From the human T2T-CHM13v2.0 reference genome, Homo sapiens: a stretch of DNA of 64,000 nt. The notes under the pieces are model-generated. The model had not been told where the DNA came from. It searched no databases and saw only the letters and a list, made by a program, of their open reading frames with translations. The position numbers and the translations under genes are program-made. The stretch lies in the NCBI RefSeq assembly GCF_009914755.1, contig NC_060936.1. One strand, written 5' to 3'. This document shows, piece by piece, positions 1 to 62,374 of the stretch. How positions within the stretch are numbered: position 1 is the first letter of the stretch; each line of letters starts with the position of its first letter.

Positions 1-910
1 AGGGACTTCTTCACATCTGGTCACATCTGGGATACAGAACAAAATTCCTGACCGCTGTTTTTGAGCTTAATTCAAGAAGTCAGTCTGTTCCAGGACATTG
101 CCACAGAATAGTTGACAGGATCTTTCCCCTTCTTACATACTACAAAGACTTGATTGACTTTTACAGACAGCAAGTGGTTGTTTTTGGTGGGCTCTTTAAA
201 TTACTAAATACACACATTTGTTCAATGTTGTCAGCCTAATTTTTTTTCAGTTCTGATGGTTTTTAACTTTTACTGAATACTCACAGACTGTGCACATAGT
301 CACTAAATGAGGTTAAGTTTTCATTTTCCATCTCATATAAATAGCTACTCAAGTAGATGTGGACTGGGATAGGTGTCCCCCAAACCAAAGCTATTTGGCA
401 AAGATCTGACTTTTCTTTCACAAGCAGAATGAGAGGCTAACATCTTAATGTACCATATTCATTGCAAGAAAATTATATCGTGCTTTAAATATAAGTCATT
501 AATCTCTCATTGCTGTTAAAAGTAATACTGAAATTAGGCAAATCAATCTTTTTTTTTTTTGGTGCAATATCTTTTCCTTGCTGGGTTCTTATCAATATCC
601 AATGGAATACATTTTTTCTCTTTTGGAGGGACATTGCTTATATATATTTTTGATATATCTCAAAAGATTCAGCGAAAATAGGAATATCACTAGGGCATAT
701 TCATTTACTAAAGCAAGTTTATAATAATCTATCTAAGAGGAGTGAAAAACTCTTCTCTGTTTTCTTCCAATAACTATAAGACAGCTTCAGACTCCTGACT
801 GTGGAACTGCTTGCAAAAGATTAAGGGCAATATTTAAAAGTATTAAGTTTATTTGCTTGCATGGTTTTTCATTCCACCTCCCCAAGTCACATTAGCCATG
901 CCACACCCAA

Positions 911-1096
911 GACCTTAGTTTTGCAATCACTTAACTCCTGATGTAGCAATTAAGATTATAACAGCCTTGAAGAAGATTCCAGAGCCTTCTGAAACCTCAG
1001 TTTCAGACCCTAGTTTTGCAATCGCTTAACTCCTGATGTATCAGTTAAGATTATAAAAGCCTTGAAGAAGGTTCCAGTTCCTTCTGAAACCTCAGT
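911..1096. repeat. Tandem duplication, 2 copies, 95-bp period
   Basis: 911-1001 vs 1006-1096 (gacc(t/c)tagttttgcaatc...ttctgaaacctcagt), gap-free, 8 mismatches in 91 bp. Confidence 0.95.
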
Positions 1097-2400: not shown

Positions 2401-4747
2401 GCTACCATAAACATAAGACTAAGCAAGGGAGTCAACAACTTGCTGAATACATGATTCAGTAATTCTTTCCTGGTTTCTTGCCTTTGAGGGGAAAAGCATG
2501 AAACTTGAAAGATTATACTTTTGTGTCTTCATCCAAATTCCTCTGAAGAGGAGCAGTGACACAGGAGCCAGGAAAGGCTCCCAGCCATACCACATGGGCA
2601 CCTGCTGTCTGCAAAGCTGTGACCATAGCTTTGCCCAGATGGACAAAGGGGAAATTGGTTGGCCTAAAGTGATTATAAATTGGCCCTGGAACCCCTTAGT
2701 CAGAGTTAAGTAGTAATTCTCTTTTGGGAAATGTACCTGTTATTATAATTGAAACGTAGTCAAGTTCTACAAACAATGGTTCATAGATTCACAGTAAGAA
2801 GTTCTGTTCAACATTTAAGAAAGTTCTGCTTTACTTTTCCTGTGCTTCCATTATAGACAATGTTAAGAGATAATTGAAAGTTGTGAAATCTGCATTCTGA
2901 AATTCCCTCTTCCTAAGATTTACTGTGAAAATGCTGGCACCTCAAACTGTGTTCCCTTTTCTCCTCTGAAAGCTTCTATGTCACTTTTAAGTTTTAATGT
3001 CTAATAAGTCTCTTAATATAATACATCATAACCATTTAATTTGAGGAATTGAGTAACCCCAAATGTTTTAACGTGTCTTTTGTGTTATTGTCATTTTATC
3101 ACCTTGATTTCACTCAACCTAACTAGTCTTTTCAGTTAGACTCATAATTCTAGTCTTTGATTGTTTTCCTCTTGCTTTTGCCTTGTTTGATTTGTAATAC
3201 TGATTTCCCTTCACCACTGACAACCTCTTTTAATTACTTTTAGTATATACTGCATTGGGTCCCAAATCACTGTTTTTTCTTTTCCCTTAACTCCTAGTAA
3301 AATTTTATCCTGTTAAGTAGCTGTTTCCTAATTTTGTATAATCATGTAAAACTATCTACCAAAACATTCCACCTGAATTCATTCAATTTGACCCAGTTAG
3401 GCCAAATGTATTATGCAATTAAATATATAATCTAAGATACAAACACATACAAACATATCTGATATATTTGTAGTCAGTGGTCTTGTTTAATCCATCACAG
3501 TATTACCTGTTTAAGGAAAGTAATTATATCAATTTTAATTATCTTAAAGTAATGTAGCACTGATCTATAAATTTCTCATAGATGTGAACTAAATATGAGA
3601 TAAAGATGATATCATAACTTGGTACAAGACTTGTGTCTCTTTTTCAGTTACTGAGCTAGCTAAGCTTTTGTCTAATTTCTTCTGTAAACATGACTAGATA
3701 GGATTACATTTATGAAGGAGAAATATACAGCCAAATTAATAAACATATACAAAAAGTCTCTGATACTACAAATACCATTTTTTTCTGAAAAGAATAGCAT
3801 ATTTTTGAAGGAGTATCTGATGAATATACATTGAATGAGATGAAAACATTCAATTTAGTGTTTCAATGTAAATATTGTAGCACTAAAGAACTACATAAAG
3901 TTTTAATTATAACATCCATTTGAAGAAATGCCATTTTATTTTGTTGTACCTTGTAGATGTCCAAGGGGTTGATAAAAATGTGTCAACACGATAAGGGAGA
4001 CACTAAAATGTTATGCCAAAAATAGACTTTTCCCACTAACACTGGGTTAGTGAAACTCAACATGCCAACATCTATCTCCAACTACAGATTTGATCCATTT
4101 TATTTGTTTTTCTTTTTGTTTTTCTTTTTTGGAAGTTAAAGTTGTTATTGACCCTGGCATAAGTATACATTATTGGGGTTTGGTTCATTCCAAACAACAT
4201 ACACTAAGCTTTTCTAAGTAGAGGTTTAACTTGAAAATGATATAGAAATGCCACTTTGGTTATAGACATGTGAGAGAAAAAAGAAGATTCTGCCTTTCCT
4301 GTGACAGTGCCTTCCACATCAAGGGCAGTGGGTCAGAAAGGTTGCTGGTGTCTTTCCTTTTTTGTTTTGCACCTCAGAAGACTCCCTCTCACCCTCTCCT
4401 TTCATTTTCCTCCATAAATAAAGAGGGTCACAAAATCACAAATTTAAGATGTTTTAGTTTGAGTAATTGTAGGCTTAATCTGTGTGTGTGTGTAAATCCA
4501 GGAAGAGGTGTGGCATTTGGCGAGACACCCTACGTAGACCTGATTTCATGAGGATCATGATAGAGTCATCCATCCTGCTGAGATAGTAATCTGTGTTTTC
4601 TTCTTGTTCAATATCCGCTCCATTTGAAGAAGCTAGGCAAACACTTCATACTCAGGAGAAAGCCGTGTAGTGCATTCTGCTCCAAATTTCTCTTTCTGAC
4701 TTTCTTTTTGGAACCTAAGATATGTCAAAATAATATGGTGAGCATCA

Positions 4748-4777
4748 AAAAAAAAAAAAAAAAAGAAGAAGAAGAAG
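4748..4777. repeat. Poly(A) plus (GAA)n simple repeat
   Basis: A run followed by gaagaagaagaag. Confidence 0.9.
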
Positions 4778-5404
4778 CATCAGGACAGAGGGGAGATAAT
4801 TTTGCCTCAATCCAAAGTAGAAGCTAGATGCTCATTGGCTCTGTGAGCGGTGCAGACCAAGAGCCATGAAATACCCAGGGAAATAAACAGGAAACAGATC
4901 AAGGAAGACTCTACATTGGCGCTAGTATTCTCAGCCCTATCAAACGTCTCTTTGCTCAGGAAGCCATTGAAAAAACTTTTGGGCAGCAAGGAACCCCTGG
5001 ATCTTGGACAATTGATGTCTAAATGGTAACTCAGCATAGACAAAGGGCCCTTGGACCTTGAATAATCTGAGTGGGAAGAGAGAAATAAGCTAATAACTAA
5101 AACTTAATTTTTTGCCAGAGACAGAGAATCAATGTCAGACTTATTCTGATTTAAAGGGAAACATGACATATGATATTTCTTAACATCCAATTTATGGAGA
5201 AAGTATCACATCAGATACAATAATAGTATGTGTCTCTATGCTGAACCCATTGGTAAAATCATAATACTTATTTATAATTATTTGTAATTAACTCATTAGT
5301 TCAGGCTAATTATCCTGAATTTTTTTAAGAGGAACAAACACCATGATCTTCCAGTTTGTCCCATGTTAAGGTAGACAATGCCACTACAGTGTGCATTCCT
5401 TATG

Positions 5405-5539
5405 GTAGATACAACACATATCCTGCTTTGCCAGAGGCAGTCCTGGTTCATGCAAATTGTCCTGGAATAATTATTAATAGTATCCACTTTCACACTCAAG
5501 AGTGTCCTGCTTTGAATTATAAATGATTTGGTCATCCTA
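5405..5539. mobile_element. MER94-like hAT-Blackjack MITE
   Basis: gtcctggaataattattaatagtatccactttcacactcaagagtgtcc...tggtcatccta matches remembered MER94 consensus including the TGGTCACCCTA terminus. Confidence 0.7.
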
Positions 5540-5799
5540 CACATAAAATATTCTGGCTTTGGAACAGTTACTTTATTATTATTTTTTTGCTGGATATATG
5601 AAGTTGTTCCTACTTCTTCATAGTATGTCATTAGTATTTTCTAACTCTCCCTTAAGCAGGAAATGTGTACTAGTCTGTTATTAATACGTTTAGATATTTA
5701 TAAGAAACAAGAAAAAAAACAGCCAGAATAGAGAGGCGAAAATGTTGTTATAAATTTGTTAACCTACTTTTTAAGTTTAATAAGAATTAATTTTCTGAT

Positions 5800-6800
5800 C
5801 TGTAGGAGAACACAGAAAAATTAATGAGAAACTTCAGCCTGGTACATTTTCTGATTTTACATAAATCAAGTACAAAAATGAAAAAAAGCTTGAAATGTCA
5901 TTTGATACTATGCACAAATTAGTACAAGACATTGTACAAATTATTTGTATTTCTCAGATAACATAGAACTTTCAATTACTTAAACAAACAAAAGTAATGG
6001 GTGGCTTTTTAATGTCAGTGCCAAAAGGGTTAGATGCAATGATACCTTGTGCTCCCATTATTAGGAGTGAAAATTATGAAACATAAAATAATACTGTATA
6101 GAAGAGCTATTAACCAGAGGTATACACCAATTTAACCAGAATGATAATCATGCTTCATGAAAGCTCTTGGGGAAAATAAAGAAACATTTAATCATTGGTG
6201 GGGAAATTATTTTTAAAAAAAAGCATTATAAAACTGTTTTACAAAATAAAGCATTTAAAATAATAAAAAGCAACAGAATATTTTATCAAAGAGTGTTGAA
6301 AAAACAAATGAAAAAAAAACTACTACTCTCAGAATGTTTTCCACTATTAATTATAAAGTTAAAAAGAATACCAATCCAAATGTGTCATCACAGTCTAGAT
6401 TTATAGTGTCATTTGAACTATGGAATGAAAAAACATTTTGCAGCAAACTTTTGAAATGAGGAAATAAAATGTTGATTATCATTGGCAAAACTTCAACTGT
6501 TCCACATAATAATGCTTTAATAATTGATTTTAAATGAAAAATTCATGATTTGGAAGATAATTTAATAGTTTTGTTGAACTTGTGAGCTACAAGAAGCAAT
6601 ATCTGCAATAATATATCAGACTCAACTCATCATTAAATAAACAATGTTATCAGTGAAACATCACTATAGGAAAGCCTCATTATTGTCTGTAGAGGGAAAT
6701 ATGTAATACTCTGGAGAAAGTCTGGAGCTTTGTCAAATTTTTGAAAATAAATTATTGATGTTTTTATTTCTACCGACGATTATTGCATTCAATTATAGAA
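5800..6800 (+). mobile_element. Possible heavily decayed hAT (Tip100/Zaphod-like) transposase remnant
   Basis: 6304-6366 reads TNEKKTTTLRMFSTINYKVKK; 6643-6693 reads NVISETSL*ESLIIVCR, resembling the hAT DE(S/T)T...L.I.VR motif; edges uncertain. Confidence 0.35.
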
Positions 6801-7517: not shown

Positions 7518-11138
<3,621 letters not shown>

Positions 11139-13489: not shown

Positions 13490-14400
13490 TTTTTTTTTTT
13501 TAATTTTACTTTAAGTTCTGGGATGCACGTGCAGAATGTGCAGGTTTGTGACATAGATTGTATGTGCCATGGTGGTTTGCTGCACTTCTCAACCCGTCAT
13601 CTAGGTTTTAAGCCCCACATGCATTAGGTGTTTGTCCTAATGCTCTCCCTCCCCTTTCTCCCCACCCTCCAACAGGCCCTGGTATGTGTTGTTCCCCTCC
13701 CTGTGTCCATGTGTTCTCATTGTTCAACTCCCACTATGATTGAGAAGATGCGGTGTTTGGTTTTCTGTTCCTGTGTTAGGTTGCTGAGGATGACGGCTTC
13801 CAGCTTCATTCATGTCTGTGCAGAGGACATGATCTCATTCTTTTTATGACTGCATAGTATTCCATGGTGTATATGTACCACATTTTCTTTATCCAGTCTA
13901 TCATTGATGGGCATTTGGGTTGGTTCCACGACTTTGTTATCGTAAATAGTGCTGTAATAAAAATACATGTGCATGTGTCTTTATAGTAGAATGATTTATA
14001 TTCCTTTTGATATATACCCAGTAATGGGATTGCTGGGTCAAATGGTATTTCTGGTTCTAGATCCTTGAGGAGTTGCCACACTGACTTCCACAATGGTTGA
14101 ACTAATTTACATTCCCACCAGCAGCGTAAAAGCATTCCTGTTTCTCCACAGCCTCCCCAGCATCTACTGTTTCCTGACATTTTAATGATCACCATTCTCA
14201 CTGGCATGAGATGGTATCTCACTGTGGGCTTGATTTGAATTTCTCTCATGATCACTAAGGATGAGCCTTTTTTCATATGTTTGTTGGCTGCATAAATGTC
14301 TTCTTTTGAGAAGTTTCTGTTCATATCCTTTGCCTGCTTTTTGATGGGGTTGTTTTATTTTCTTGTAAATTTGTTTAAGTTCCTTATAGATTCTGGATAT
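13490..14400 (-). mobile_element. LINE-1 3' fragment (about L1PA8-10)
   Basis: Poly(T), reverse 3'UTR (ttactttaagttctgggat), ORF 13806-14324 encodes the ORF2 C-terminus (WNQPKCPSMIDWIKKMW); no TSD found. Confidence 0.93.
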
Positions 14401-16916: not shown

Positions 16917-17748
16917 ATCTGGTGCATTGGTTAGAAACCGAAAGACTGAAATTAGCCATTCTTGATTAGAACGAAAATTCCACCATTTATTGTACAGCCT
17001 TAGGCAAAAAGCAAAAAAAAAAAAAAAACAAACAAAAAAAAAACTCTTGAGCCTTAATGTATCCTTTTTTAAAGGCACGACAATGCCTATTTAATAATGT
17101 TAAGAGTTAAATAAATTTAAGTTCTTAACATGTACTCATTGAAGTCACTTTATTGTTGTGCTAAAATGTTTTCAGGTAGAGAAGTAAATCTGTGTCACCT
17201 TGTTTCTTTCTCTGTGTAAACAGACAATAGCCAATTCCTACCTTTGGTTAACAACTTTCAACAAAACTTGAAGCTTCTTCCTGTCATTCTCTTTTCTGCC
17301 TCAAACCATGCTGATTCTTCTAGCTTTCACTTAAAGAGATGTTTTTCTCCAACTCTTTAATAATAATCTGAGATTCTTTCAAACCCTCTGAAATGTTTCA
17401 TATTCCTCTGAAATTATGGTGCCAAGAACAGACTGAGTTTTATGACAAAGTCTGCAGCCATGTATTCAAAGTTTTTGCATAACCACATGAAACATTCCCA
17501 GAGTAAGCATCTCTGATTAATATTTTCTGAAAATATGAGTATCATACCTAACAATTTCTCTTTTCCGGGGGTAAGGTGCTTTGCATATTATTAAATATTC
17601 ATCTCGCTATTTATGATTGTAGTGGTATTTACTGTTTTATTTAATTCAAAGTCCTGTTGATGTTTTACAGGCTATACTGTTTGATTTCGTATTTCTTCAA
17701 TGACTTACCTCAGCCATAATCTTAAGAACTGCCCTTTAGATGGGGTGG

Positions 17749-17758
17749 CAAGATGGCC
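17749..17758 (+). promoter_or_regulatory. YY1 site of the L1 internal promoter
   Basis: CAAGATGGCC at the canonical position near the L1 5' end; activity unknown. Confidence 0.6.
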
Positions 17759-19068
17759 AAATAGGAACAGCTCAGGTCTGCAGCTACCAGCGAGATCAAC
17801 GCAGAAGGTGGGTGATTTCTGCATTTCCAATTGAGGTACTCAGCTTATCTCACTGGGACTGGTTAGACAGTGGGTGCAGCCCATGGAGGGTATGCCGAAG
17901 CAGGGTGGGGCATCACCTCACCCAGGAAGTGCAAGGGGTTGTGGAACTCCCTCCGCTAGCCAAGGGAAGCCGTGAGGGACCATGCCCTGAGGAATGGTGC
18001 ATTCCAGCCCAGATACTATGCTTTTGTTCTCAACCTGCAGCAGGAGATTCCCTCAGGTGCCTACACCACCCGGGCCCTGGGTTTCAAGTACAAAACTAGG
18101 CGGCCATTTGGGCAGACACCGAGCTAGCTGCAGGAGTTTTTTTTTCATACCCCAGTGGTGCCTGGAACTACAGCGAGACAGAACCCTTCACTCCTCTGGA
18201 AAGGGGGCTGAAGCCAGGGAGCCAAGTGTTCTAGCTCAGCGTATCACACCCCCATGGAGCCCAGCAAACTAAAATCCACTGGCTTGAAATTCTTGCTCCC
18301 AGGAGAGCAGTCTGAAGTCAACCTGGGATGCCAAGCTTGGTGACGGGAGGGGTGTGAGCCATTACTGAGGCTGGAGTAGACGGTTTTCCCCTCACAATGT
18401 AAACAAACCGGCTGCGAAGTTCAAATTGGGTGGAGCCCACCTCTGCAAAGCGGCTGTAGCCAGACTGCCTCTCTAGATTCCTCCTCTCTGGGCAGGGTAT
18501 CTCTGAAAGAAAGGCAGCAGCCCCAGTCAGGGACTTAGAGATAAAACTCCCATCTCCCTGGGACAGAGCACCTGGGGGAAGGGGCAACTGTGGGCGCAGC
18601 TTCAGCAGACTTAAATGTTCCTGTCTTCAGCCTCTGAAGAGAGCAGCAGATCTCCTAGCACAGTGCTCGAGCTCTGCTAAGGGACAGACTGCCTCCTCAA
18701 GTGGGTCCCTGACCCCTGTGCCTCCTGACTGGGAGACACCTCCAAGCAGAGGTCGACAGACACCTCATACAGGAGAGTTCCGGCTGGCATCTGGTGGGTG
18801 CCCCTCTGGGATGAAGCTTTCAGGGGAAGGAAGAGGCAGCAATCTTTGCTCTTCTGCAGCCTCTGCTGGTGATACTTGGACAAACAGGGTCTGAAGTGGA
18901 CCTTCAGTAAACTCCAGCAGACCTGCACCAGAGGGGCGGCCTGACTGTTAGGAGGAAAACTAACAAACAAAAAGGAATATCGTCAACATCAACAAAAAGG
19001 ATGTCCACACAAAAACCCCATCCGAAGATCACCAACATCAAAGACCAAAGGTAGATAAATCCACCAAG

Positions 19069-20088
19069 ATGATGAAAAACCAGTGCAAAAAGGCTGAAAA
19101 TTCCAAAAACCAGAACGCTTCTTCTCCAAAGGATCACAGCTCATCTCCAGTAAGAGAACCAAACTGGACAGAGAAAGAGTTTGATGAATTGACAGAAGTA
19201 GGCTTCAGAAGGTGGGTAATAACAAACTCCTCTGAGCTAAAGGAGCATGTTCTAACCCAATGCAAGGAAGCTAAGAGCCTTGAAAAAAGGTTAGAGGAAT
19301 TACTAACTAGAATATTCAGTTTAAAGAAAAACATAATGACTTGATGGAGCTGAAAAGCACAGCACAAGAACTTCAGGAGGCATACACAAGTGTCAATAGC
19401 CGAATCAATCACGGGGAAAAAAGGATATCACAGATTGAAGATCAACTTAATGAAATAAAGCAAGAAGAAAAGATTAGAGGAAAAATAATAAAAAGGGACA
19501 AACAAAGCCTTCAAGAAATATGGGACAATGTGGAAAGACCAAACCTATGTTTGATTGGTGTACCTGAAAGTGATGGGGTGAATGGAATCAAACTGGAAAA
19601 CACTCTCTTCAGGATATTATCCAGGAGATCTTCCCCAACCTAGCAAGACAGGCCAACGTTCACATTTGGGAAATACAGAGAACACCACTAAGATACTACC
19701 AGAGAAGAGCAACCCCAAGACACATAATCATCAGATGCACTAAGGTTGAAGTGAAGGAAAAAATGTTAAGGGCAGCCAGAGAGAAAGGTCGGGTTATCCA
19801 AAAAGGGAAGGCCATCAGACTAACAGCGGATCTCTCAGCAGAAACTCTACAAGCCAGAAGAGAGAGGGGGCCAATGTTCAATATTATTAAAAAAAAAATT
19901 TAATCCAGAATTTTATAACCAGCCAAACTAAGCTTCATAAGCAAAGGAGAAATACAAATTTTTACAGAAAAGCAAATGCTGAGAGGTTTTGTCACCACCA
20001 GACCTGCCTTACAAGAGCTCCTGAAGGAAGCACTAAATATGGAAAGGAAAAACCAGCACCAGCCACTGCAAAAACATACCAAATTGTA
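19069..20088 (+). pseudogene. Disrupted L1 ORF1
   Basis: MMKNQCKKAENSKNQ... and ...SLQEIWDNVERPNL... in separate frames. Confidence 0.93.
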
Positions 20089-21139
20089 AAGAACATTGAC
20101 ACTATGAAGAAACTGCAACAACCAACAGGCAAAATAACCAGCTAGCATCACGACAGGACCAAATTCACAAATAATGATATTAACCTTAAATGTAAATGGG
20201 CTAAATGCCCAAATTAAAAGACACAGACTGGCAAATTGGATGAAGAGTCAAGACTCATTGGTGTGCTGTATTCAGGAGACCCATATCACATGCAAAGGCA
20301 CACATAGGTTCAAAATAAAGGGATGGAGGAATATTTACCAAGCAAATGGAAAGCAAAAAAGTGCAGGGGTTGCAAAAAAAGAAATCAAAGACCTAAATAA
20401 ATGATGAGAGCTACTATGTTAATGAACTGTGATTCAAGATATGAACAATCTTCTAATTGATCTATATGTTTAATGCAATTTCCAGCAAGATTTGTATAGA
20501 CATAATCAAGCTTATTCTAAAGTTTATATGGAAACACACAGATTCAAGAATAGTTAAAACAATCTTGACAAAAAATACAATGGAAGGAATTACTCTACCT
20601 TGGAACCAACCCAAATGCCCATCAGTGTTAGACTGGATAAAGAAAATGTGGCACATATACACCATGGAATACTGTGCAGCCATAAAAAGGATGAGTTCAT
20701 GTCCTTTGCAGGGGCATGGATGAAGCTGGAAACTATCATTCTCAGCAAACTAACACAGGAACAGAAAACCAAACACCGCATATTCTCACTCATAAGTAGG
20801 AGCTGAACAATGAGAACACATGGACAAAGGGAGGGGAACATTACACACCGGGCCCTGTTGGGGTTTGGAGGGTAGGGGAGAGACAACATTAGGATAAATA
20901 CCTAATGTAGATGATGGGTTGATGGGTGTAGCAAACCACCATGGCACACGTATACCTATATAACAAATCTGCATGTTCTACACATGTATCTCAGAACTTA
21001 AAGTATAATTTTAAAAACATTTTGCAAATAAAAAACAACTGCCATTTTACTTGTTTCTTTTGATTTTTAATTATAAACATTTATAATTTATAAATTATCA
21101 CTTGTAAGGATACCTCTGATTGTACTTTTATAACAATAT

Positions 21140-24100
21140 CTACCTTCCTCTACCTGTCCCCCCATTCATAACACCTGGGCATCTACTAATCTGTTCTTTG
21201 TCTCTACCATTTTGTCAATTCAAGAATGTTATATCAATGAAATCATATATTTCAGCATTGGCTTTTTTTACAGAGCACAATTTCCTTGAGATTTATCTGA
21301 GTTGCTTTGTATCAATAATATAGTTTGTGTCTTTATTGCTGAGTAATGTTTCATGGTACGGTTGTATCAAGCTTGTTTATTCAACAGTTGAAGAACATTT
21401 GGATTGCTTCCAGTTTTTTTGCTATTATTAACAAAACTACTGTGAACATTCATATACATATTATTGTGAGCATTACTCTTCATTTCTCTAGAATATACAC
21501 CCAAGGATTCAATTGCTGGGTCACGAAGTAACTATATATATTTAGTTTTATAAGCAAATGCTAAACTGCTCCCCAGAATGGCTGTACCATCTCACATTCC
21601 CAGCAACAATGTATGAGTGAGCTAATTTGTATGTCTCCTGACCAGCATTTGGTGTTGTAACTATTTTTCATTTTATTCATTCTGATAGTCCTGTAGTAAT
21701 GTCTCATTGTGATTTTAATTTGAATGTCCTTAATACATAATAATTTTGAATATCTTTTCTTTTGCTTATTTGCTATCTGCATATCCTCATTGGTTGAAAT
21801 ATATTTGGCTATTGCCCATTTTCTAATTGAATTGTTTTCTTTTTAATGTTGAGTTTTGAAAGTTCATTATATATTCTAGATACTAGTCCTTTGTCAGATA
21901 GGTTTGCAAATGTTTTCTCCAAGTCTGTGGTTTGTCTTTTCATACTCATAAAGGTCACTGTCAAAGGAAAAGTTTTTCATTTTGATGAGGTTCAATTTAT
22001 CAATCATTTTGTTTTACATTTAAGTCTGTGATCCATCTTGAGTTCACTTTTAGAATAACATGTAATTTAAATCAAAGTTCATATTTTGCCTATGATATAC
22101 AGTTGCTCCAGCACTGTTTGTTGAGAAGGCTATCCTTCATCTAGCAAGTTGTTTTTGAACTTTATTGCAATCATGTCGGTATTCCTTTGGGTCTATTATT
22201 GGATTTTCTACTCTTTACTATCGATATTTGCTTGTATCCCTATGCCATAATATACCCTCTCATTTATTATAGCTAAATAGTAAGACTTAATATCAGGTAG
22301 AATAATTCCTTCTATTGTATTCTTTGTCAAGATTGTTTTAGCTATTCTTGAGTCTGTGTGTTACCATATAAACTTTAGAATAAGCTTGATTATGCCTATG
22401 TAAATCTTGTTGGAAATTGCATTAAACATATAGATCAATTAGAAGATTGTTCATATCTTGAATCACAGTTCATTAACAGAGTAACTCTCATCATTTATTT
22501 AGGTATTTTATTTATTTCAAACAATATATTGGGATATTCAGTGTAGAGATCCTGTATGCATTTTCTTAAGTTTATACATGAGTTTCATTTTATTTGGAGT
22601 GATTAAAAACGGTATTGTGTTTTTAATTTGTTTTCACATGCTATTTTTTAACATATAAGAATGAGTTTCTTTGTGTTGGTTTTGTATCTTTCAAACTACT
22701 GAACTAACTTAACAGTTCTACTTTTTAATTTTTATAGAGATATCTTGGAATTTTCTTCTAAGACAATCGTGTCATCTGCAGATAGGGACAATTTTATTTC
22801 TTACATTCCAATCTGTATAACTTTCATTTCTTTTTCTTCCCTCACTGGAGTGACCAGAACTTGTAGTACTATGTTAAATATAGGAGGTAAGAGTAGACAT
22901 CTTTAATATGTTCCTAATCTTAGGGGCAAAGCTTTCAGTATTTCACTATTACATATACTGTTAGCTATAAACTTTTTTTTTTTTTTACATTTTGCTATCA
23001 TGTTCAAGCAAATATTCTGTAATTATAACTTTCTGAGAGTTTTTGTAATTAATGGGTGTTGGAGTTTTTCAAATGCTTCTACTTCAATTAATTAATTAAT
23101 TATATATATATATGTTTCTTTTCGGCATTTTGATGTAGTCAATTACATTGATTTTTGAATTTTGAACCAGATTTTCATTACTTGAAATAAATCTCATTTA
23201 TTCACTGTGTATAATTGTTTTTATACATTTTTGGATTCAATTTGCTAAGGATTTTTGCATATATACTCATGAGGGATATTGATCTGTAATTTTTCTTTGT
23301 TATTTTGGTGTCAGAGAAATTCTGACCTCATAATATAAATTAAGAAGCTTTCTCTCCTTTTCTTTGTTCTGGAAAAGATTGTATAAAATTGGTATTCTTT
23401 AAATGTTTGTTAGAATTTTTCACTGGAACCATCTGGACATGTAATTGTTTTCTTCAGAAGACTTCTAATTATGAATTGAATTTCTTTCATAGTTAAAAAC
23501 TAATCAAATGATACATTTCTCTTTGGTTGGGATTTTACAGTTTGTGGCTTTCAGTGAATTGATCCATCAGTCTACTTTGAATTTATGAGTAGAAGCTGCT
23601 CATAGTACTGCATTTTAGTCTTTATATGGCTGATATTTTTGCCTTGTGTCCTCTCTTTTTAAATTTTGGCCAGTCCTGCCATAAGCTCATCAATTTTATT
23701 ATTTTTTCCAAAGAATCAATTTTTGTTTTGTTGATTCTTTTCTATTGTCTTCTGATTTCCAATTACATAGATTTCTACTCTTTTACTTATTATTTCACAC
23801 TTTACCTGCCTTGCATTTATTTACTCTTGGTTTTCTAGTTTCCTAAATTTTGCACAGAGGTAATTGATTTAAGACCTTCACACTTTTTTTTTCTTTTAGC
23901 TAACATAAGCATTTTGTGCTATAAATTTCCCTTTCATAACAGCTTTATCTACATCTCTACATCTCACATATTTTGATATGCTGCATTTTTTATTTTCATT
24001 CAGTTTTACGCATTTTTATTTCGTCTGATATCCCCTCTGAATCATGGATTATTTAGAAGTGTATTGTTTAATTTTCAAGGTGCAGAGATTTTCTTCTTAT

Positions 24101-24405
24101 TACTATTAGTTTTTAGTTTAATTATGTTATGATTAGAGAACATACTCTTTATAATTTCAAATTTTTTAAAGTTGTTGAGGTTTATTTTATAGCTAGGACT
24201 TGATGTATCTCAAGGAATGTTCCATGCATGCTTGAAAAAATGTATATTTAGCTGTTGTTCAGTGAAGTGTTCTATAGATGCCATATTTTTATAGTTGATA
24301 ATGTTGTTCAGGTCTTCTATATTTTTGTTGATTTGGTTTTTACCTAGCAGTTCTATCAAGGTTGATAGAAGGTTTTTGAACTTCCCAATTATCATTGTGG
24401 TTCTG
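21140..24405 (-). mobile_element. Old L1M element (3'UTR plus ORF2, decayed)
   Basis: Minus-strand ORF2-like peptides (IQIKITMRHYY...KCW; NKNIEDLNNIIN), T-rich plus strand. Confidence 0.85.
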
Positions 24406-26274
24406 TCATTTTATGAAGATCACCTAGATACTATTTTAATTACTTCACAATCAGAAAACTTAGTGGAATGTGATCATGAAAGTTTTTCTTTCACTGTTGA
24501 AAATATCCTTCTCAGAAAATAGAGTGAAAAAGTAAAAGAACGTTGATATATTCCACATAGTTAGTGACAAAGTCATTTGCAAAAATTTGGAGTTAATAGT
24601 AAATTTTGATGAGGGGAGAGCATTTGGAGGTTTCCTGGAGTCCAAGAAAATGCTGAAGAATTAAGTTCTGTGTAGTCCCTCTAGTCCTCTATAACATGCA
24701 AATATTATGTGAAAATTGCACCACATCCCTTAATAGACAAAGTTGGCTTGACTTTATGGGCTAAGTATTGAGTAATAGTAGTTTTACTATGGCATATAGT
24801 GAAGCAATCTAAATTATGAATGGAACCCAGTTTATCTAACTTTTACATTCTGTTTAATAGGTCCATTGGCCTTATATATATATATATATATCTACCATTA
24901 CTATTTAATTATATATATTTCTATTAAATTTAAAATGAAAAGGCTTTTTTTTTTTTTTTTTTTAGTTCAGGCCTGTGTGTTTTACAGCCACAAAAAAACA
25001 TTACTAAGGGATAACTTAGAGCACATTCTTCCTGATAGTGTTATTATCTAATGAATCACAGCTGATTTTTTCTTGGCTTAATAGTCTCAGAAGAAAGTTT
25101 TATAATGTGTCCCGAGTTCAATAATTGCTGAATCAGTTAATCTTTATATAATAGAAAAATAAGAAAACTCCACTGTAAGCATGTTGAACAAGGTTTTAAT
25201 TAAAAGCAGTTCTATGGTTGGCAGCAGCCTCTGTCCCAACTGTGTTTTTACAAAATCCTCCAAAATATTTTAAAGTAATCTCTATCTTTACTTATTATAA
25301 AGAGAGTTATATTCTTCTGACTAATATGAACAAGAATTGTTTTCAGCTCATATAATTAATAGGGTAACAGATTTCTCACATGCTAAGCTCAGCCAGCAAT
25401 GGGTGTGTGTGAAATAAAAAGTTCACCCCTCTCTCCCTAGTGTATGACCTCAGCTTTGGACAAGATAATAGAAATGGCTTATGTAAAAGATTAGTTCCTG
25501 ATGTTAATGGACCTAAAATCTACAGAATGTGCTGTTTGTTCAAAAACAGACATGGAATTTGCTCCTATATTCAGTGTGTTATTTACTTGTATACATTGTG
25601 CTATGTTTTTGAAAATGACCTTAAGCATAAACTTTATTAGTAGCATCCAACTTCCACTCCACTGTTGTCTCTGGCAACATTTTCTTTTCATCCTCTCTTA
25701 CCTATATTTATGGTAAATGACAAACTGGCTTTTTAAAGAAATGGCCAATCAAAAAAAGCCTGCAGCAATTTCAATTTCCAAAAAGAGAGCACTAAGTTTG
25801 AGGTTTTACGACCATGGTAAGTGTCTTCAGTTCTGGGGTGACTTTGATAAATTACTTTAAAGGAGTTTTGTTATAAAGAAACAAATCCCCAGGATATATA
25901 GTTCTCTCATTGCCTCATATCCTTATTTTTCACATGATTGTCCTGGGACTCTTTGAGAACATCTGGGAGAGCTCTGATTACAAAATGTGAGCTGTTTTGA
26001 GCACAGCGCAGTTTGTAATTTTGATTCTGTTTCATGCTGAATCTTGTTGTGCTCTCATCCCCTTTTTAATCCATTCAGATAGATAACATGTTCTAAGATC
26101 TCTTTTAAATGGGTTAAGTCAACTTCAGTTCCATGTAGAAAGGTTTTCTCATCACGTAAGGGAAAGTCTGATATAACAGTTTTTATTACAACACAGTTGA
26201 TACACAGGGCAAGGAAATTTAATATAAAGAAAGACAAGAGATACATTACAGGGATCTTGAGTTGCACAGGCTTT

Positions 26275-34997: not shown

Positions 34998-37900
34998 CCT
35001 TCACTTGACACAAATCTTCTCCGCATGTATTTGGGAGTAGATCCTCCATGCTGTTCCTGTTTCTCTCAAACTACAACATCTGTTGCTGCAGTGGTCTCAG
35101 GGTTGTAACTTATATATATCATCATTTCCCCCCTCCACCCTCCATTCTAAATGTCCCTCTACCTCAGCTGTTGCCTGAGTATGTCTTAGTGAATTCCTGG
35201 CATTTTGACCTAAACCCTAATTCTTAAGGAGGCTGAGCCTCTGGTAATCTCAAACTAGTATTGCTGCAAGTGGACATACATAGTTACAATTAGACATGGG
35301 AACATAAAGGGGTATGCAAGTGAATCATCTGAGTTCCATACATATTCCTCTCCACCCTCACTATGTGAAAGCAGACTTAACTCCTCCTGCTAATCAATTA
35401 CCCTGGCCAAGATGGTAGCCCCTCTCTTCACCTACTGGACCCTGGACACAAGGAGTTCAAAGTGCACAGGGGGAAGCAATGGTTTATAATTCATTGGGGG
35501 CAGTGTTGTATGCCTTGGTAAAATATGCCACCTTAAAAGAAATCAACATATCAAAGGGATAGCTGCACTTGCTTGTTTATCGCAGCACTATTCACAGTAG
35601 CAAAGACGTGGAATAAACTAAATGCCTGTCAACAGATGAATGGATAAAGAAAATGTGGTACATATACACAATGGAATACTATTCAGCCATAAAAAATGAA
35701 ATCATGTCACTTGCAGCAACATGGGTGGGCCAGAAGGTCATTATCTTAAGTGAAATAACACACGCACAAAAAGACAAACATCACATGTTCTTATTCATAT
35801 GTGGAAGCTAAAAAATTTGACCACATGGAAGTTGATGGGAAAAATAGATAACAGGGACTGGCAGAGTTTAGTGGGAGGGAGAATGAAGAGAAGTGGGTTA
35901 AAGAGTACAAACATACAGTTAGGAAGAATACATTCAATGTTTGATAGCAGAATAGGATGGCTACACTTAAAAACATGTATTGTACTTGGGTGATGGATGC
36001 CCTAAATACCCTGACTTAATCACTACATATTATATAGATGTAAAAATTTTCTCATGTGCCCCATACATTTGCACAAATAAAAAATATTCCACCATTGGGA
36101 ACCAAGAATTATAACTACAGAGTCAAGAGTTGTGAAGTTGTGAAGACAGGGTACACAAAGTTCTCCAGTTGGTCACTGGGAAGAATATTAAGTGGGGGTC
36201 ACTCCTTTCTTTTATCCCTTGGTTCCTGGACATATATTTTTCCTAATGGAAACATAATATCACGCATGAGACTCTAGTGTGTATGCTGTATTTTAGAGAA
36301 TGGCACCCTGTCTTCACAGAGTATTTCCTTCAAGTTGGTGCTTCAGTTGTGTCTTTACTCATCAATTTCAATGCTCTGTCAGGCTAGCTGCTTCTACACA
36401 GTATAGGAGTGGTATGTGATTCAATGCACACTATGTGAATGCCACAGTTACTCCTGTATCTATTTTGCTATGAAGTGGGCCTGTTGGTCAAATGTCATTC
36501 AGTGTGAAATTCCCTGTTTGTAGATCTGGCTACATGAGCTTCTGGATAGTCATGCTGGTTGAGGCTCCCCTGGGAGATAATGCAAACTCATATCTAGAAA
36601 ATTATTTTATTCCTATAAAAATCACCACTGGCTTTTCTAGAATAAAGGGAGACCAAAGTAGATGACTAGCCACCAGTAGCAAGTTGGTCTCCTGAAAGAA
36701 TAGTGCCATACCAAAGTCTCAGCATTAAGTCTGGCTGGCAGTTTGGGTGATTAGGGTTATCTGTAGTCTTAATAAATGAGAGTCCATTGAGCTAGTGCAG
36801 TTTCTACCTTTGCCACAGTGCTATTCTTCTCTGTGCCCATTTGACCAGTTCCAGGTTAGCTGAAGACAAAGGTTGGCTGAACCATTTTTTCTATTCATTG
36901 CTCACTGCTTCCTCTAGCGTGGATCATTTTTGATAGATAGTAACATGATGACAAAAACCTTCACACTTCAGGCCGATCTCCAGTGTCCATTCACATGACC
37001 CCACTCCAGACATCTCTGGCCTCCCAGTTCTTGTCCTTTCAGTGTACTCATCATATAGCCCCATTTATTTTTGGCTTGTACCATAAACCATGATAACCTC
37101 TACATAAAACAAGCTTATGCTTTTTCCTCTTCTTTCATCTGGGTGTACCCTGACTCATATATGGTCATAGGTGAAATGTAAACTGAAAGAGGGTCACTGA
37201 TGCAACTCTGGCAGATACCACTGGGATCTGGGCTGCCTGTCCATGAAGGTTACTCAGGACTTCTGATTCTGCTCAAGCTCAATTCCATTTTCTTCAGAGA
37301 GTGATCAGCTACTGAGCCCTTCTGACAATCTACTTGGCAAGTCAAGCAGAACTCAGCTTATAATGAGGAGTTGCAGAGACACAGTCACTTGGTACCATGT
37401 AGTCAATTGTTCTATGTCTTCCTGGATGCAGTATTTTCCCAGGAGCTATTTTTCAAAATGAATGTAATTATCTGCTGATGACATGGCCATAATCCAGAAC
37501 CCCAGAGGCCTCTGTTATGCTTCTTCCACTGGGGCTTGCCATAAGGCCACACTGCATCTCTTCTGACAACTCTTCAAATTCAACTGTGCTGGATTACATG
37601 ACCCAAACGGCAGAGCTGTTTGCACCGCAAACCAAATTCAATTCAGAACCTTTACTTCTCTTGGCTCTACTGGGAGGTGGTGGCCTTTCATGTCATCTGG
37701 CACATAAGCCAGAGCAGTAAACCCTGGGGTCAAATCTGTTGCTTCTGGAACCTAATAGCCCTTCCAAGCATTGCTTCCTTCTCCGTGGTGAGGTATCAAA
37801 ATACAGAAAAATTATATTTTACTCTTTAGTTGTATCAGCCTGTCCCTGACCACTGGTCCCTTGAAAATGTTGCTGAATTTCTTGGAATCTTCATAGAGTT

Positions 37901-57592: not shown

Positions 57593-58242
57593 ATTGCCTT
57601 TATAAACTAGGTAATCCCTGTTACTTACACTACTATCAGCCACAAAAGAAAAAGGAAAAAGAGAAGGAACATCTCTATCAAATAACAGAAAAGAACGGTT
57701 CCCAACTTCTTTCATGAGGCCAGCATAAACTTAATAGCAAAACCTAACAGAGTCATTAAAGTAAAATGATAGTACAAACCAATCTTATGCATAACTGTCA
57801 AAGCAAAATTCCACTCCCACAAAAACAGCAAACTGCATTCAGCAATACATTAAAAACATATACTCAAAACACTGCAAGATTAGTTAACATTTAAAAATGT
57901 GTAATAATTCAATTCATTGAAAATAAAAAATTATCAACAGGTCAATAGATGGAATAAAAACATATGAAAAATTTCAGCATGGATTTATGATTTTAAAACT
58001 CAGCAAACTATAAATAGAAGGAAATTTCTTACTCTGATAGTGATTATGTTAGTTGATGGAGAAATGTTGAAAGCTTTTCCTTTGAAATTGGAACAAAAGG
58101 ACAATAATTATTTAACATTGTTTTGGAGATCTTGGCAAATGCAAAGGGCAAGTAAGTGAAACAAAAGGGATAGTCACCAGAAATAAAGAAATAAAATGTT
58201 AATTATTCGTGGAGAACTTGATTATGTTGTAGAAAATCCAAA

Positions 58243-58635
58243 ATAGTTTACTGAGAATGATGATTTCCAATTTCATCCATGTCCCTACAAAGGACATGAA
58301 CTCATCATTTTTATGGCTGCATAGTATTCCATGGTGTATATGTGCCACATTTTCTTAATACAGTCTATCATTGTTGGACATTTGGGTTGGTTCCAAGTCT
58401 TTGCTATTGTGAATAGTGCTGCAATAAACATACGTGTGCATGTGTCTTTATAGCAGCATGATTTACAGTCCTTTGGGTATATACCCAGTAATGGGATGGC
58501 TGGGTCAAATATTTCTAGTTCTAGATCCCTGAGGAATCACCACACTGACTTCCACAATGGTTGAACTAGTTTACAGTCCCACCAACATTGTGCACATGTA
58601 CCCTAAAACTTAAAGTATAATAATAATAAAAAAAA
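58243..58635. mobile_element. Twin-primed (5'-inverted) young L1 (L1PA2/3-like)
   Basis: 58243-58587 is reverse-complement L1; 58585-58635 is the sense terminus plus poly(A); perfect TSD agaaaatccaaaata at 58231-58245 and 58636-58650. Confidence 0.93.
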
Positions 58636-59300
58636 AGAAAATCCAAAATAATCTAAAGAAAAACTATCAGAATTACTAAAAAAATTTGGCAAGGTCACCA
58701 GATACATCAATATGTAAAAAAAATCCATTGTATTTTTTAGTCTAGCAACAAACAAATGGAAAAAAATTAATAAGATTTTCAATAGTATAAAAAAGAAATA
58801 AATCTTTAGAAAAGTGCAACATCTGTGAAAGAAACCAAAACATAGTACTGACAGAAATGAAAGAAGTCCTAATAACATAGAGGGATACAGAAGACTTAAT
58901 GTTGTTATAATGTCAGTCCCTGAAATTGATTCATAGATCCCATTCAATCCCAATAAAATTCTTAACCAGTTTTCTTTTCTAAGGTAGATAAGCAATTTTC
59001 ATGACTTTTATATGGAATATAAAGGGCCGAGACACCCAAAACAAGCTTGTAAAGAAGAACCAAGTTAGAGAACATGAACTATGTAGTAAGTCTTATTATA
59101 AAGCTACTCTAATTAAGAGTTGCAATATTAGAGCAAAAATAGACAAATCAACAGATGAAACAGAATGAAGAATACAGAAATAAACCTACACATTTATTAT
59201 TATTCGTTTAACAAATGTAGCACATATACACATATACAGATAGATACATAAATAAACATATATATCCATATATAGATACAGCTAGATATTTCTATGTGTC

Positions 59301-60116: not shown

Positions 60117-61070
60117 TCAGTCATAATAACACAAAAATATCAAATATATCTAGGAAAATGCAACAAAGATGATCATGACTTCTTCACAGAAAAATATAGC
60201 ATTATTGAAATAAACTAAAGAAGACCAAAATAAATAGAGGGATAAATTATACTTATACATTGGAAAACTCAGTATTTTTAAGATTTCGATTTTTCTCAAA
60301 CCAATCTATAAAAGCAATGTTATTCAAATAAAAATGCCAATGAGTTTGTGTGTGTATGTGAATGTGTGTATATGTGTGATTTGAAAAGCCAGTTCTAACA
60401 TATATGTGGACGTGAAAAAGGGCAAGAATGGTCGTGCCACTCTTAAAGTGGAACAAGGTGTGAAAATTTACTCTGTTAGATCAAAAGTTTGTATTAAAGC
60501 CTCATAATAAAGACAATGTGATACTCTTGCAAGGATAGACCGACATGCTGACAAAACCAATGGAATAGAGAGTCCAGAAAACTAAATATTCTTCTATAGA
60601 TATTTGGTTTATAACGAGATGACACTGAGAAGTAGAAAAACAACTATCTTTTCTTTAAGGGGTAATTGTCAAATATGTATCCACTTGATCCCTAACAAAT
60701 ACCATACTACCAGTCCTAGATGGTTTGAAGATTTAAAAGTGAAAGTAAATTAATAAAGTTTCTCAAAGGTACTATAGGAGAAAATTCATCAGTTTAGAGT
60801 AAGAAAAGATACTTCCAAGAGAACACAAAACGTGTAGTAATTATTTTTTAAAAGAATTGATAAAATTGACTACATAAAATTAAGAATTAATTTTCATCAA
60901 GAGACAGAAAATAGAAAGGCAAGCCATGGGGTGGGAGAATGGATTTGAAAAATATGTAATCAATAAAAGAGTTCTTTTTATAATATACAAAGAATTTCTA
61001 GAAATCAGTAAGAAAACACAATTGAATGGACAAAAGTGCAAATGAACTTCAGCAGTCCCCTCAAAAAAGA

Positions 61071-61390
61071 AGTTCGTGTCCTTTGTAGGGACATGGATGA
61101 AATTGGAAATCATCATTCTCAGTAAACTATCGCAAGAACAAAAAACCAAACACCGCATATTCTCACTCATAGGTGGGAATTGAACAATGAGATCACATGG
61201 ACACAGGAAGGGGAACATCACACTCTGGGGACTGTTGTGGAGTGGGGGGAGGGGGGAGGGATAGCATTGGGAGATATACCTAATGCTAGATGACAAGTTA
61301 GTGGGTGCAGCACACCAGCATGGCACATGTATACGTATGTAACTAACCTGCACAATGTGCACATGTACCCTAAAACTTAAAGTATAATAA
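61071..61390 (+). mobile_element. 5'-truncated L1PA2-like 3' end
   Basis: gagatcacatgg, gcattgggag, gcacaatgtg diagnostics; lacks the Ta ACA; TSD aaaaaagaag at 61063-61072 and 61391-61400. Confidence 0.9.
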
Positions 61391-62374
61391 AAAAAAGAAG
61401 ATATCTAAATGGCAAAAAGGAAAAAAGAAAGAAAGAAAGAAACTCACCTAACATACAAACCAAATAGATATGAAAAGGTACTCAACCTCATCAGTAAACC
61501 AAAAAGTTCCCATTAAAACCTCAATTAGACTTGAGGAGTCTGGGAAGATGGTGAAGTAGGAAGCATGATAATTCAGCCTCCCCACCTAGACAACAATTAC
61601 ACTGGCAGAATCTGTCTGATATAATTATTTTGGAATTATAGAGTCTATTGAAGGCTTGCAACATCCAAGGGAAGGCTTGCTTGGTAAACTGCAATTAATT
61701 TTGCTTAATTTCCGAAGACATAAATAGGTTTAAAATGAAAGTATGGAAAAAAAAATTCTGTGCAAATAGTAACCAGAAGAGAGCAAGTGTGGCTAGACTA
61801 ACATCAGACAAAACAGACTTTAAATAAAATAGCTTATAAGAGATAAAAAGGACATTATAAATTAATAAGAGATTTAAGACAGCAAGAAGACAATTATAAA
61901 CATTAACACACTAATAACAGACTGTAAAATATATAAAGCAAAAATTGACGGAACTGAAAGAAGGAAATAGTTCTACAGTAATATTTGGAAACTTCAGTGC
62001 CTCACTCTCAATAATGGATAAAACGACCAGACAAAAAACAAGTAAGAAAATAGAGGACTTGTATAACACAATAAACCAACTAGATCTCACAGATATATAT
62101 AGAATATACTAATTAAGAACAACAGAATACACATTCTTCTCAATTGCACAGGGTAATTTTCCAGGATACAGCATATATTAGGTCACAAATTACATCTCAA
62201 TAGATTTAGAAAGATAGATATCATACAAAGTATGTTCTACAAATACAAGATAGTTAGAAATAAATAACACAAAGAAACTGGAAGATTAACAAATTCACAA
62301 AAATTGAAAAATGCACTCTTAAAATTAAATAACCAGTGTATCAAAGAAGAAATCAGAAAAGAAATTAAAAAGTA

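What the first reader, a model, noticed from the sequence alone, without database searches (positions are those of the whole stretch)
20375..22517. L1 with ~3.4 kb of ORF2 replaced by an inverted copy of the neighbouring older L1
Seen: 20391-20600 is a gap-free reverse complement of 22295-22504 (12 mismatches in 210 bp, ~94%; extends to ~223 bp). It shares the private deletions of that decayed L1M copy, so it was copied from this locus, not from an active L1. It joins ORF2 codon ~75 (AGVA) to codon ~1208 (WNQPKCP) of a single L1PA7/8 that still has both TSDs. Junctions show microhomology (ttg(c/a)aa left, ct right). The patch is itself L1-sense, comes from a region homologous to the deleted interval, and both junctions keep the ORF2 frame, so it passes as ordinary collinear L1 and annotators would likely miss it. 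Inference: either post-insertion double template switching (MMBIR/FoSTeS, polymerase-theta-like, or homeologous conversion between inverted L1s), or ORF2p jumping from its own RNA to a local minus-strand template and back during TPRT, which would be much more novel. The ~6% patch/donor divergence looks low for the element's age and mildly favours the post-insertion model.
Basis: partly seen in the sequence, partly recalled or inferred. Interest (0 to 1): 0.8.

Follow-up and report, generated by a model that had tools for sequence, protein, structure and literature searches.

The report
Old L1 patched with neighbouring inverted DNA
A full-length ancient L1 retrotransposon lost 3.4 kb of its interior and the gap was filled with a 223-base inverted copy of DNA lying 1.7 kb away, which is a clean but ordinary scar of template-switching repair or replication.

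Summary
Window 20378-20600 is a gap-free reverse complement of 22295-22517, with 15 mismatches in 223 nt. Across the whole T2T genome the patch's only close match is that local stretch, at 93%; the next best is 75%.

The patch sits inside one TSD-flanked, 5'-complete L1PA (17742-21033). It joins ORF2 codon 75 to codon 1208. About 3.4 kb is missing relative to a full-length copy.

The donor lies in its native, collinear place in an antisense older L1. Patch and donor share an 11-nt deletion that 3 other copies lack.

The joins use 2 nt (CT) on the right. On the left there is an A-run overlap of 1-3 nt plus 0-2 orphan A.

Best reading (about 0.65): a post-insertional template switch primed by microhomology (MMBIR/FoSTeS or snap-back end joining). 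Homeologous conversion is not supported, because patch and L1PA share almost no DNA similarity. A template switch during TPRT stays possible (about 0.27), but it already has precedent in somatic L1 insertions. The molecular clock leans post-insertional: 15 differences seen against 18-26 expected (P 0.30-0.013).

Verdict: a new member of a known kind, of modest interest.

The parts
17724..17741 (+). Left target-site duplication (AAGAACTGCCCTTTAGAT)
   Evidence: It matches 21034-21051 at 13 of 18 positions, and 12 of 14 in the first 14. A 12/14 match anywhere between the two flanks was reached in 12 of 2000 shuffles. An equally good 12/14 match, 17716 versus 21005, lies inside the L1 3' end and was judged chance.
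17742..20375 (+). L1PA 5' part: 5' UTR, ORF1, inter-ORF spacer, ORF2 codons 1-75
   Evidence: Window 17747-20375 aligns to L025 96-2762 (84.3%), and L024 aligns from 17735. ORF2p residues 2-75 match at E 1e-35. In 35 of 39 non-self genomic matches to 20100-20377 the match ends at 20375, and none runs further.
20376..20377 (+). Two A that match neither L1PA (TC) nor the donor (TG): untemplated addition, slippage in the A-run, or later mutation
   Evidence: Junction alignments.
20378..20600 (+). Patch: inverted copy of 22295-22517, in the sense orientation of the older L1, ORF2p about 795-873, with stop codons
20601..21033 (+). L1PA 3' part: ORF2 codon 1208 to the end, 3' UTR, degenerate A-rich tail
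   Evidence: Window 20599-21009 aligns to L025 6140-6552 (88.9%). ORF2p 1204-1237 matches. The 39 non-self genomic matches are 91-92% identical and start at 20601-20603.
21034..21051 (+). Right target-site duplication (AACAACTGCCATTTTACT)
22295..22517 (-). Donor, in its native place inside the older antisense L1
   Evidence: The flanking minus-strand frames continue collinearly. 22211-22360 matches ORF2p 854-890. 21564-21842 matches 1064-1156. 22804-22902 matches 661-691.
21564..23380 (-). Verified collinear span of the older antisense L1 (L1M-like; subfamily name not tested); it probably reaches about 21100 to about 24400
   Evidence: Collinear weak DNA matches to the other L1PA in the window are 21815-21942, 22751-22901 and 23250-23380. 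PDB searches of 22498-22584, 23205-23327 and 24213-24410 gave no ORF2p match.

Best explanation
A full-length L1PA inserted by ordinary TPRT next to the 3' end of an older, oppositely oriented L1. Probably millions of years later, a break or a stalled fork inside its ORF2 was repaired by template switching. The minus-strand 3' end at ORF2 codon 1208 paired through 2 nt (AG/CT) with its own strand, or the sister's, 1.7 kb behind, at 22295. It copied 223 nt up to 22517. It then rejoined the other side at codon 75 through an A-run overlap with 0-2 extra A.

The net result is loss of codons 76-1207 (about 3.4 kb) and gain of an inverted copy of the neighbour. This is the class called MMBIR/FoSTeS or snap-back synthesis-dependent end joining.

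Shown: the copy, its unique local donor, the deletion, the junction sequences, and the lack of usable homology. Inferred: the order of events, which strand was extended, and which polymerase did it.
For: - The donor is unique and local: 93% against a next best of 75%.
- The donor is intact and collinear in the older L1, so this was a copy and not a move.
- Patch and donor share an 11-nt deletion and many substitutions absent from 3 other copies.
- The L1PA is collinear with a full-length copy except for about 3.38-3.40 kb.
- The joins show 2 nt, and 1-3 nt, of microhomology, plus 0-2 orphan bases.
- An inverted copy taken from the same strand within 2 kb is the geometry expected of an intrastrand or intra-fork switch. 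This is inference from the coordinates.
- Clock: patch and donor differ at 15 of 223 sites (K2P 0.071, no CpG in either). The same element's CpG-masked ML terminal branch is 0.064, which predicts 26 differences if the patch were as old as the insertion (P(<=15) = 0.013). The tree is star-like, so that branch is mostly post-insertion decay.
- 6.7% divergence rules out a recent assembly artefact.
Against: - The clock is weak. Using the median branch of the 28 related copies (0.042) gives 17.9 expected differences and P = 0.30. The strictly-unique count (3.17%) would predict about 14.
- 223 nt is long for polymerase-theta-type inserts (recalled).
- Private substitutions are not raised next to the left junction: 3 in the last 100 nt against about 6 per 100 overall.
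- Somatic L1 insertions with templated genomic patches under 250 bp from near the insertion site are documented, so an origin at insertion time is a live alternative.
- No orthologous sequence could be examined.
Confidence: 0.65

Rival explanations
1. The patch arose at insertion time. During TPRT the growing minus-strand cDNA left the L1 RNA at codon 1208. It folded back onto the exposed or resected target strand 1.26 kb from the insertion site and copied 223 nt of DNA, using ORF2p or a host polymerase. It then returned to the RNA at codon 75 and ran to the 5' end.
For: - The strand geometry is identical to that of the repair model, because the primer strand of TPRT is the strand that carries the donor (inference from coordinates).
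- ORF2p copies DNA templates, adds untemplated bases and jumps templates in vitro (PMC10830420, passages read).
- 22 'templated insertions' were found among 3,598 somatic L1 insertions, with templates mostly under 250 bp near the insertion site (bioRxiv 10.1101/2024.08.27.596794, passages).
- TSD, A-tail and a complete 5' end are canonical.
- With the median branch length the clock does not reject it (P = 0.30).
Against: - It needs RNA-to-DNA-to-RNA switching, a 3.4-kb skip along the RNA, and then 2.6 kb more synthesis to a complete 5' end.
- The element's own branch length predicts 26 differences against 15 seen (P = 0.013).
- The donor is 1.26-1.48 kb from the insertion site, whereas the preprint, as printed, gives 'within 15 bp'.
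Confidence: 0.27
2. Homeologous gene conversion or recombination took place between the L1PA ORF2 and the inverted older L1, with the patch replacing the homologous L1PA stretch.
For: The patch corresponds at protein level to ORF2p 822-874, which lies inside the deleted interval. The last 90 nt or so of the patch align to the homologous L1PA stretch at about 69%, with score 27 against a shuffle maximum of 18.
Against: - blastn with word size 7 finds no match at the homologous place; the best E-value is 0.19, at unrelated positions.
- Neither junction lies at the homologous L1PA position: codons 75 and 1208 against 795-873.
- Two flanking deletions would have to abut the tract exactly.
Confidence: 0.02
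3. The structure is an artefact or a coincidence: a misassembly, two independent L1PA insertions flanking an older fragment, or a twin-priming inversion of L1's own sequence.
For: None found. Long reads and other assemblies were not available.
Against: - The two arms differ by 6.7%, so this is not a recent chimeric join.
- The 5' piece has no 3' end or A-tail of its own, and both pieces are collinear with one full-length copy inside one TSD pair.
- The patch matches the older neighbour and not L1PA, unlike the real twin-primed L1 at 58243-58640, whose inverted part has at least 39 genomic matches at 97-98%.
Confidence: 0.02

Closest known systems
Complex deletion-insertion with a templated, inverted local insert (FoSTeS/MMBIR; 'Del+Ins' and 'inverted linked gain' classes of structural variants)
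   Same: It shows a deletion at the acceptor, an insert copied from nearby DNA in inverted orientation, a retained donor, and microhomology of a few bases at the joins. Such classes and the FoSTeS/MMBIR explanation are described for mouse strains in PMC3439969 (passages read).
   Different: Here the event is old and fixed. It lies wholly inside one transposon, and the template happens to be another L1 in the opposite orientation, so the insert reads as L1-sense.
Snap-back / synthesis-dependent microhomology-mediated end joining (polymerase theta type)
   Same: A 3' end folds back on its own strand, copies it, and then joins the other end by microhomology. The sources are PMC4912351, PMC5728401 and PMC2943611, of which only the search listing and the starts of the abstracts were seen.
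   Different: The insert is 223 nt and the template lies 1.7 kb away. Inserts of this pathway are usually much shorter and closer (recalled, not checked).
Somatic L1 'templated insertions' / chimeric L1s formed during integration
   Same: L1 sequence is joined to a copy under 250 bp of genomic DNA from near the insertion site, with TSD and A-tail (bioRxiv 10.1101/2024.08.27.596794; PMC11702581).
   Different: Those events are dated to the insertion by direct observation. Here the timing is unknown and leans later. Here also L1 resumes after the patch and reaches its full 5' end, and whether the published cases do so was not seen.
Twin priming (5'-inverted L1)
   Same: An inverted segment lies inside an L1 flanked by TSDs.
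   Different: In twin priming the inverted segment is the same L1 RNA. Here it is a copy of the older neighbour, and it lies in the same sense as the host L1.

Membership tests
Templated-insertion complex indel (MMBIR/FoSTeS/SD-MMEJ type) | The insert is a copy of nearby genomic DNA, and the donor is retained | tested here: met
   The local donor matches at 93% and the next best genomic match at 75%. The donor is collinear in its own element.
Templated-insertion complex indel (MMBIR/FoSTeS/SD-MMEJ type) | Joins show microhomology or a few untemplated bases, not long homology | tested here: met
   The right join uses CT (2 nt). The left join is an A-run of 1-3 nt plus 0-2 orphan A. There is no usable homology.
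Templated-insertion complex indel (MMBIR/FoSTeS/SD-MMEJ type) | Sequence is lost at the acceptor site | tested here: met
   L025 positions 2763-6139 (3377 nt) have no counterpart in the window. ORF2 codons 76-1207 are missing.
Templated-insertion complex indel (MMBIR/FoSTeS/SD-MMEJ type) | The event is later than, and independent of, the L1 insertion | tested here: inconclusive
   15 differences were seen against 17.9-26.2 expected under co-insertion (P 0.30-0.013). No orthologues were available.
L1 chimeric 'templated insertion' made during TPRT | Canonical TPRT hallmarks surround the whole structure | tested here: met
   There is a probable 18-nt TSD. The A-rich tail and complete 5' end are shown.
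L1 chimeric 'templated insertion' made during TPRT | A short template lies close to the insertion site | tested here: inconclusive
   At 223 nt the patch is under 250 bp, but the donor lies 1.26-1.48 kb from the insertion site. The preprint text reads 'within 15 bp'.
L1 chimeric 'templated insertion' made during TPRT | The patch is as old as the insertion and is present in all carriers | not testable with these tools
   The own genome has no relatives held (header). The clock leans against it without excluding it.
Twin-priming 5' inversion | The inverted segment derives from the same L1 RNA | tested here: not met
   The patch has no blastn match to L1PA and matches the neighbour at 93%.
Gene conversion / NAHR between inverted repeats | There is extended high-identity homology flanking or spanning the tract | tested here: not met
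   about 69% over about 90 nt at best. The junctions are not at homologous positions.

The most novel reading that the evidence does not exclude
The patch was written during the original retrotransposition. The L1 cDNA end would have folded back on the target's own resected strand, copied 223 nt of genomic DNA, then re-engaged the L1 RNA 3.4 kb further on and completed a 5'-full-length insertion. That would make this a fixed germline fossil, tens of millions of years old, of the 'templated insertion' chimeras so far seen in tumours and cell models. It would also show that reverse transcription can resume on the RNA after a DNA-templated detour.
Probability: 0.27. Interest if true: 0.5.

Novelty: new member of a known kind. 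Interest (0 to 1): 0.3.

Why it matters
It is a clean, base-resolved example of a kilobase deletion filled by an inverted copy of DNA 1.7 kb away. The copy is preserved long enough to be dated roughly against its own host element.

Because the insert is itself L1-like and L1-sense, repeat annotation by family could hide such scars, so old transposons may hold more of them than is recognised. One orthologue comparison would say whether it records ordinary repair or a detour of the L1 reverse transcriptase. Neither outcome would overturn current models.

Tried and rejected
- **Displaced segment.** I checked whether the missing 3.4 kb had been moved to the 3.6-kb repeat at 7534-11133. It had not. 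That repeat is a separate 5'-truncated L1PA that includes its own 3' end (L025 2972-6556, 89.8%).
- **Second local patch.** I checked the 96% inverted pair 10519-10871 / 58591-58243. It is not a local patch. That fragment has at least 39 genomic matches at 97-98% and belongs to an ordinary twin-primed young L1 with a TSD. It served as a negative control for the unique-donor test.
- **Homeologous conversion.** Rejected.
- **Error-prone synthesis.** The three clustered mismatches at 20381, 20386 and 20390 are not synthesis errors in the patch. The patch carries the state seen in the 3 other copies and the donor carries the change, towards an AAAT-like repeat. Private substitutions are not raised near the left junction.
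- **Polarising the 15 differences with 3 outgroups.** About 8 are donor-derived, 3 patch-derived and 4 unclear. This was read by eye and is not significant.
- **First dating attempt.** An attempt with 10 copies chosen on a 278-nt piece was replaced by 28 copies chosen on 1.4 kb.
- **PDB searches.** Searches of 22498-22584, 23205-23327 and 24213-24410 gave no ORF2p match.
- **Not attempted.** Subfamily naming, RepeatMasker behaviour and a genome-wide survey for similar patches were not attempted, because no tool was available for them.
Full report
**Observation.** The region 18000-25000 holds one strong inverted repeat, 20378-20600 against 22295-22517. It is 223 nt, gapless and 93% complementary, with 1694 nt between the arms. 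The other 13 inverted pairs are 21-28 nt at 71-77%. Identity collapses immediately outside both ends. Ten of the differences are transitions and five are transversions. Neither arm holds a CpG. The K2P distance is 0.071.

**The donor is local and unique.** I searched the window's own genome (3.1 Gb, T2T-CHM13) with the patch, and 40 of 270 first-look candidates were scored. Self scored 100%, the local arm 93% (335 bits), and the next best 75% (150 bits, chrX). All others were 67-86%, mostly over partial lengths. The tool scores only its best candidates, so counts are lower bounds, but a second copy near 93% would have ranked. In an alignment with three other copies of the same old L1 family (L003, L004, L006), patch and donor share an 11-nt deletion and many substitutions that the three lack. 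As a control, the inverted L1 fragment at 58243-58591 gives at least 39 genomic matches at 97-98%. The test therefore separates family-level similarity from a private copy.

**Anatomy of the host element.** Against solved ORF2p structures, 20138-20401 aligns to residues 2-75 and ends in AGVA. The stop-free frame 20457-20720 aligns in two pieces. The patch part aligns to 822-874 (…GITLP); this is 9hdo numbering minus 522, an offset fixed by the same call's 8uw3 row. The L1PA part aligns to 1204-1237, with W1208 at 20601.

A full-length L1PA copy (L025, chr2) matches 17747-20375 at its positions 96-2762 and matches 20599-21009 at 6140-6552. Its intervening 3377 nt have no counterpart here. By codon count the loss is 1132 codons, or 3396 nt. 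In 35 of 39 non-self genomic matches to 20100-20377 the match stops at 20375, and none runs further. The 39 non-self matches to 20601-20900 start at 20601-20603.

The element begins at 17742 with a complete 5' end. It is flanked by AAGAACTGCCCTTTAGAT (17724-17741) and AACAACTGCCATTTTACT (21034-21051), which agree at 12 of the first 14 positions. A match that good was reached in 12 of 2000 shuffles. A second 12/14 match (17716 against 21005) falls within the L1 3' end and I take it as chance. The 5' piece has no 3' end or A-tail of its own, so it cannot be a separate insertion. This is one L1PA with an internal deletion-insertion.

**The donor's context.** On the minus strand, 21564-21842 aligns to ORF2p 1064-1156. 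22211-22360 aligns to 854-890 and reads straight on past the patch's end. 22804-22902 aligns to 661-691. Weak DNA matches to the window's other L1PA are collinear out to 23380. The donor therefore sits in its native position in an older antisense L1, and the patch is the copy. Three further segments gave no ORF2p match.

**Junctions.** On the right, L1PA reads …AAAGACT|TGGAACC, the donor reads …TCTACCT|GATATT, and the window reads …TCTACCT|TGGAACC. CT is shared. On the left, L1PA reads …GGGGTTGCAA|TCCTAG and the window reads …GGGGTTGCAA AA AAAGAAATC…. The donor in register reads …TTTG AAATAAATA…. The overlap is only within the A-run, and the two A at 20376-77 match neither parent. At the three clustered mismatches (20381, 20386, 20390) the patch keeps the state of the other three copies and the donor has changed. 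These are therefore later donor mutations and not copying errors.

**No usable homology.** blastn with word size 7 finds nothing between the patch and the whole L1PA copy at the homologous place; the best E-value is 0.19, at unrelated positions. A sensitive local alignment finds about 69% identity over about 90 nt (score 27; shuffles had mean 11.4 and maximum 18). Neither junction lies at the homologous L1PA position. Homeologous conversion is therefore not supported. That the patch is 'homologous to the deleted interval' carries no weight either, since the deletion removes 89% of ORF2.

**Mechanism.** The patch's minus strand equals the donor's plus strand. A minus-strand 3' end at 20601 that pairs through AG/CT with the minus strand at 22295 and extends to 22517 gives exactly this product. 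This is an intrastrand or intra-fork template switch, followed by a second switch or microhomology join at codon 75. The same geometry holds for a resected break end, a stalled nascent strand and a TPRT cDNA, because the TPRT primer strand is the strand that carries the donor. Structure alone therefore cannot date the event.

**Timing.** I took the 28 best genomic copies of 18970-20375 that aligned over at least 1300 nt. They came from 29 loci, from 40 scored of 9818 candidates; the best non-self identity was 89%.
- This copy differs from the column majority at 85 of 1327 non-CpG sites (6.41%). Of these, 42 are strictly unique (3.17%). The others have a median of 4.58%.
- ML terminal branches over all sites are 0.085 for this copy and 0.042-0.078 for the others.
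- With the 242 of 1494 columns that hold a CpG in any copy masked, this copy's branch is 0.064. It is the longest; the minimum is 0.022 and the median 0.042.
- The tree is star-like, with this copy joining at the hub, so the branch is mostly post-insertion decay.

If the patch were as old as the insertion, 26.2 differences would be expected from this copy's own branch (P(<=15) = 0.013). From the median branch 17.9 would be expected (P = 0.30). The clock thus leans post-insertional, with the event at roughly 0.55 of the element's age, but it does not exclude co-insertion. Private substitutions are not raised beside the left junction.

**Literature.**
- ORF2p copies DNA templates, adds untemplated bases and jumps templates (PMC10830420, passages).
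- Long-read tumour data list 22 'templated insertions' among 3,598 somatic L1 insertions, with templates mostly under 250 bp near the insertion site (bioRxiv 10.1101/2024.08.27.596794, passages).
- Deletion-plus-insertion and inverted linked gains, explained by FoSTeS/MMBIR, are standard classes of structural variant (PMC3439969, passages).
- For snap-back end joining I saw only search listings and the starts of abstracts.

No paper describing this locus was sought or found. Of the five literature searches, none was aimed at it.

**Verdict.** The most likely origin is a post-insertional, microhomology-primed template switch (0.65). An origin during TPRT remains possible (0.27) and is no longer unprecedented. 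Either way this is a new member of a known kind. One orthologue comparison would settle the question.

Noticed in passing
window 7534-11133 (+): A separate 5'-truncated L1PA of 3.6 kb that includes its own 3' end (89.8% to L025 over 3610 nt). Its size is close to that of the missing 3.4 kb of the studied element, but it is not the displaced piece.
   Followed up: yes
window 58233-58651: A young L1 with classic twin-priming structure. An inverted ORF2 fragment (58243-58591) is joined to a short sense 3' end and A-tail, and GAAAATCCAAAATA flanks it on both sides. Its genome-wide matches are 97-98%.
   Followed up: yes
window 910-1096: Two adjacent copies of a 92-nt unit at 91% identity (910-1001 and 1005-1096).
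   Followed up: no
window 22505-22520 (donor, minus-strand reading): Since the copy was made, the donor has changed at three close sites, giving an AAAT-like repeat (AAATAAATAAAAT). The patch keeps the older state. This may be a local drift towards a microsatellite.
   Followed up: partly
window 17742-20375: This L1PA has the longest terminal branch of 29 related copies (0.064 against a median of 0.042 with CpG columns masked). The cause could be an older insertion, a faster local mutation rate or a decayed source copy, and was not resolved.
   Followed up: partly
window 13495-14400 (-), 35574-35829 (+), 61063-61402 (+): Further L1 3'-end fragments of various ages lie in the window.
   Followed up: no
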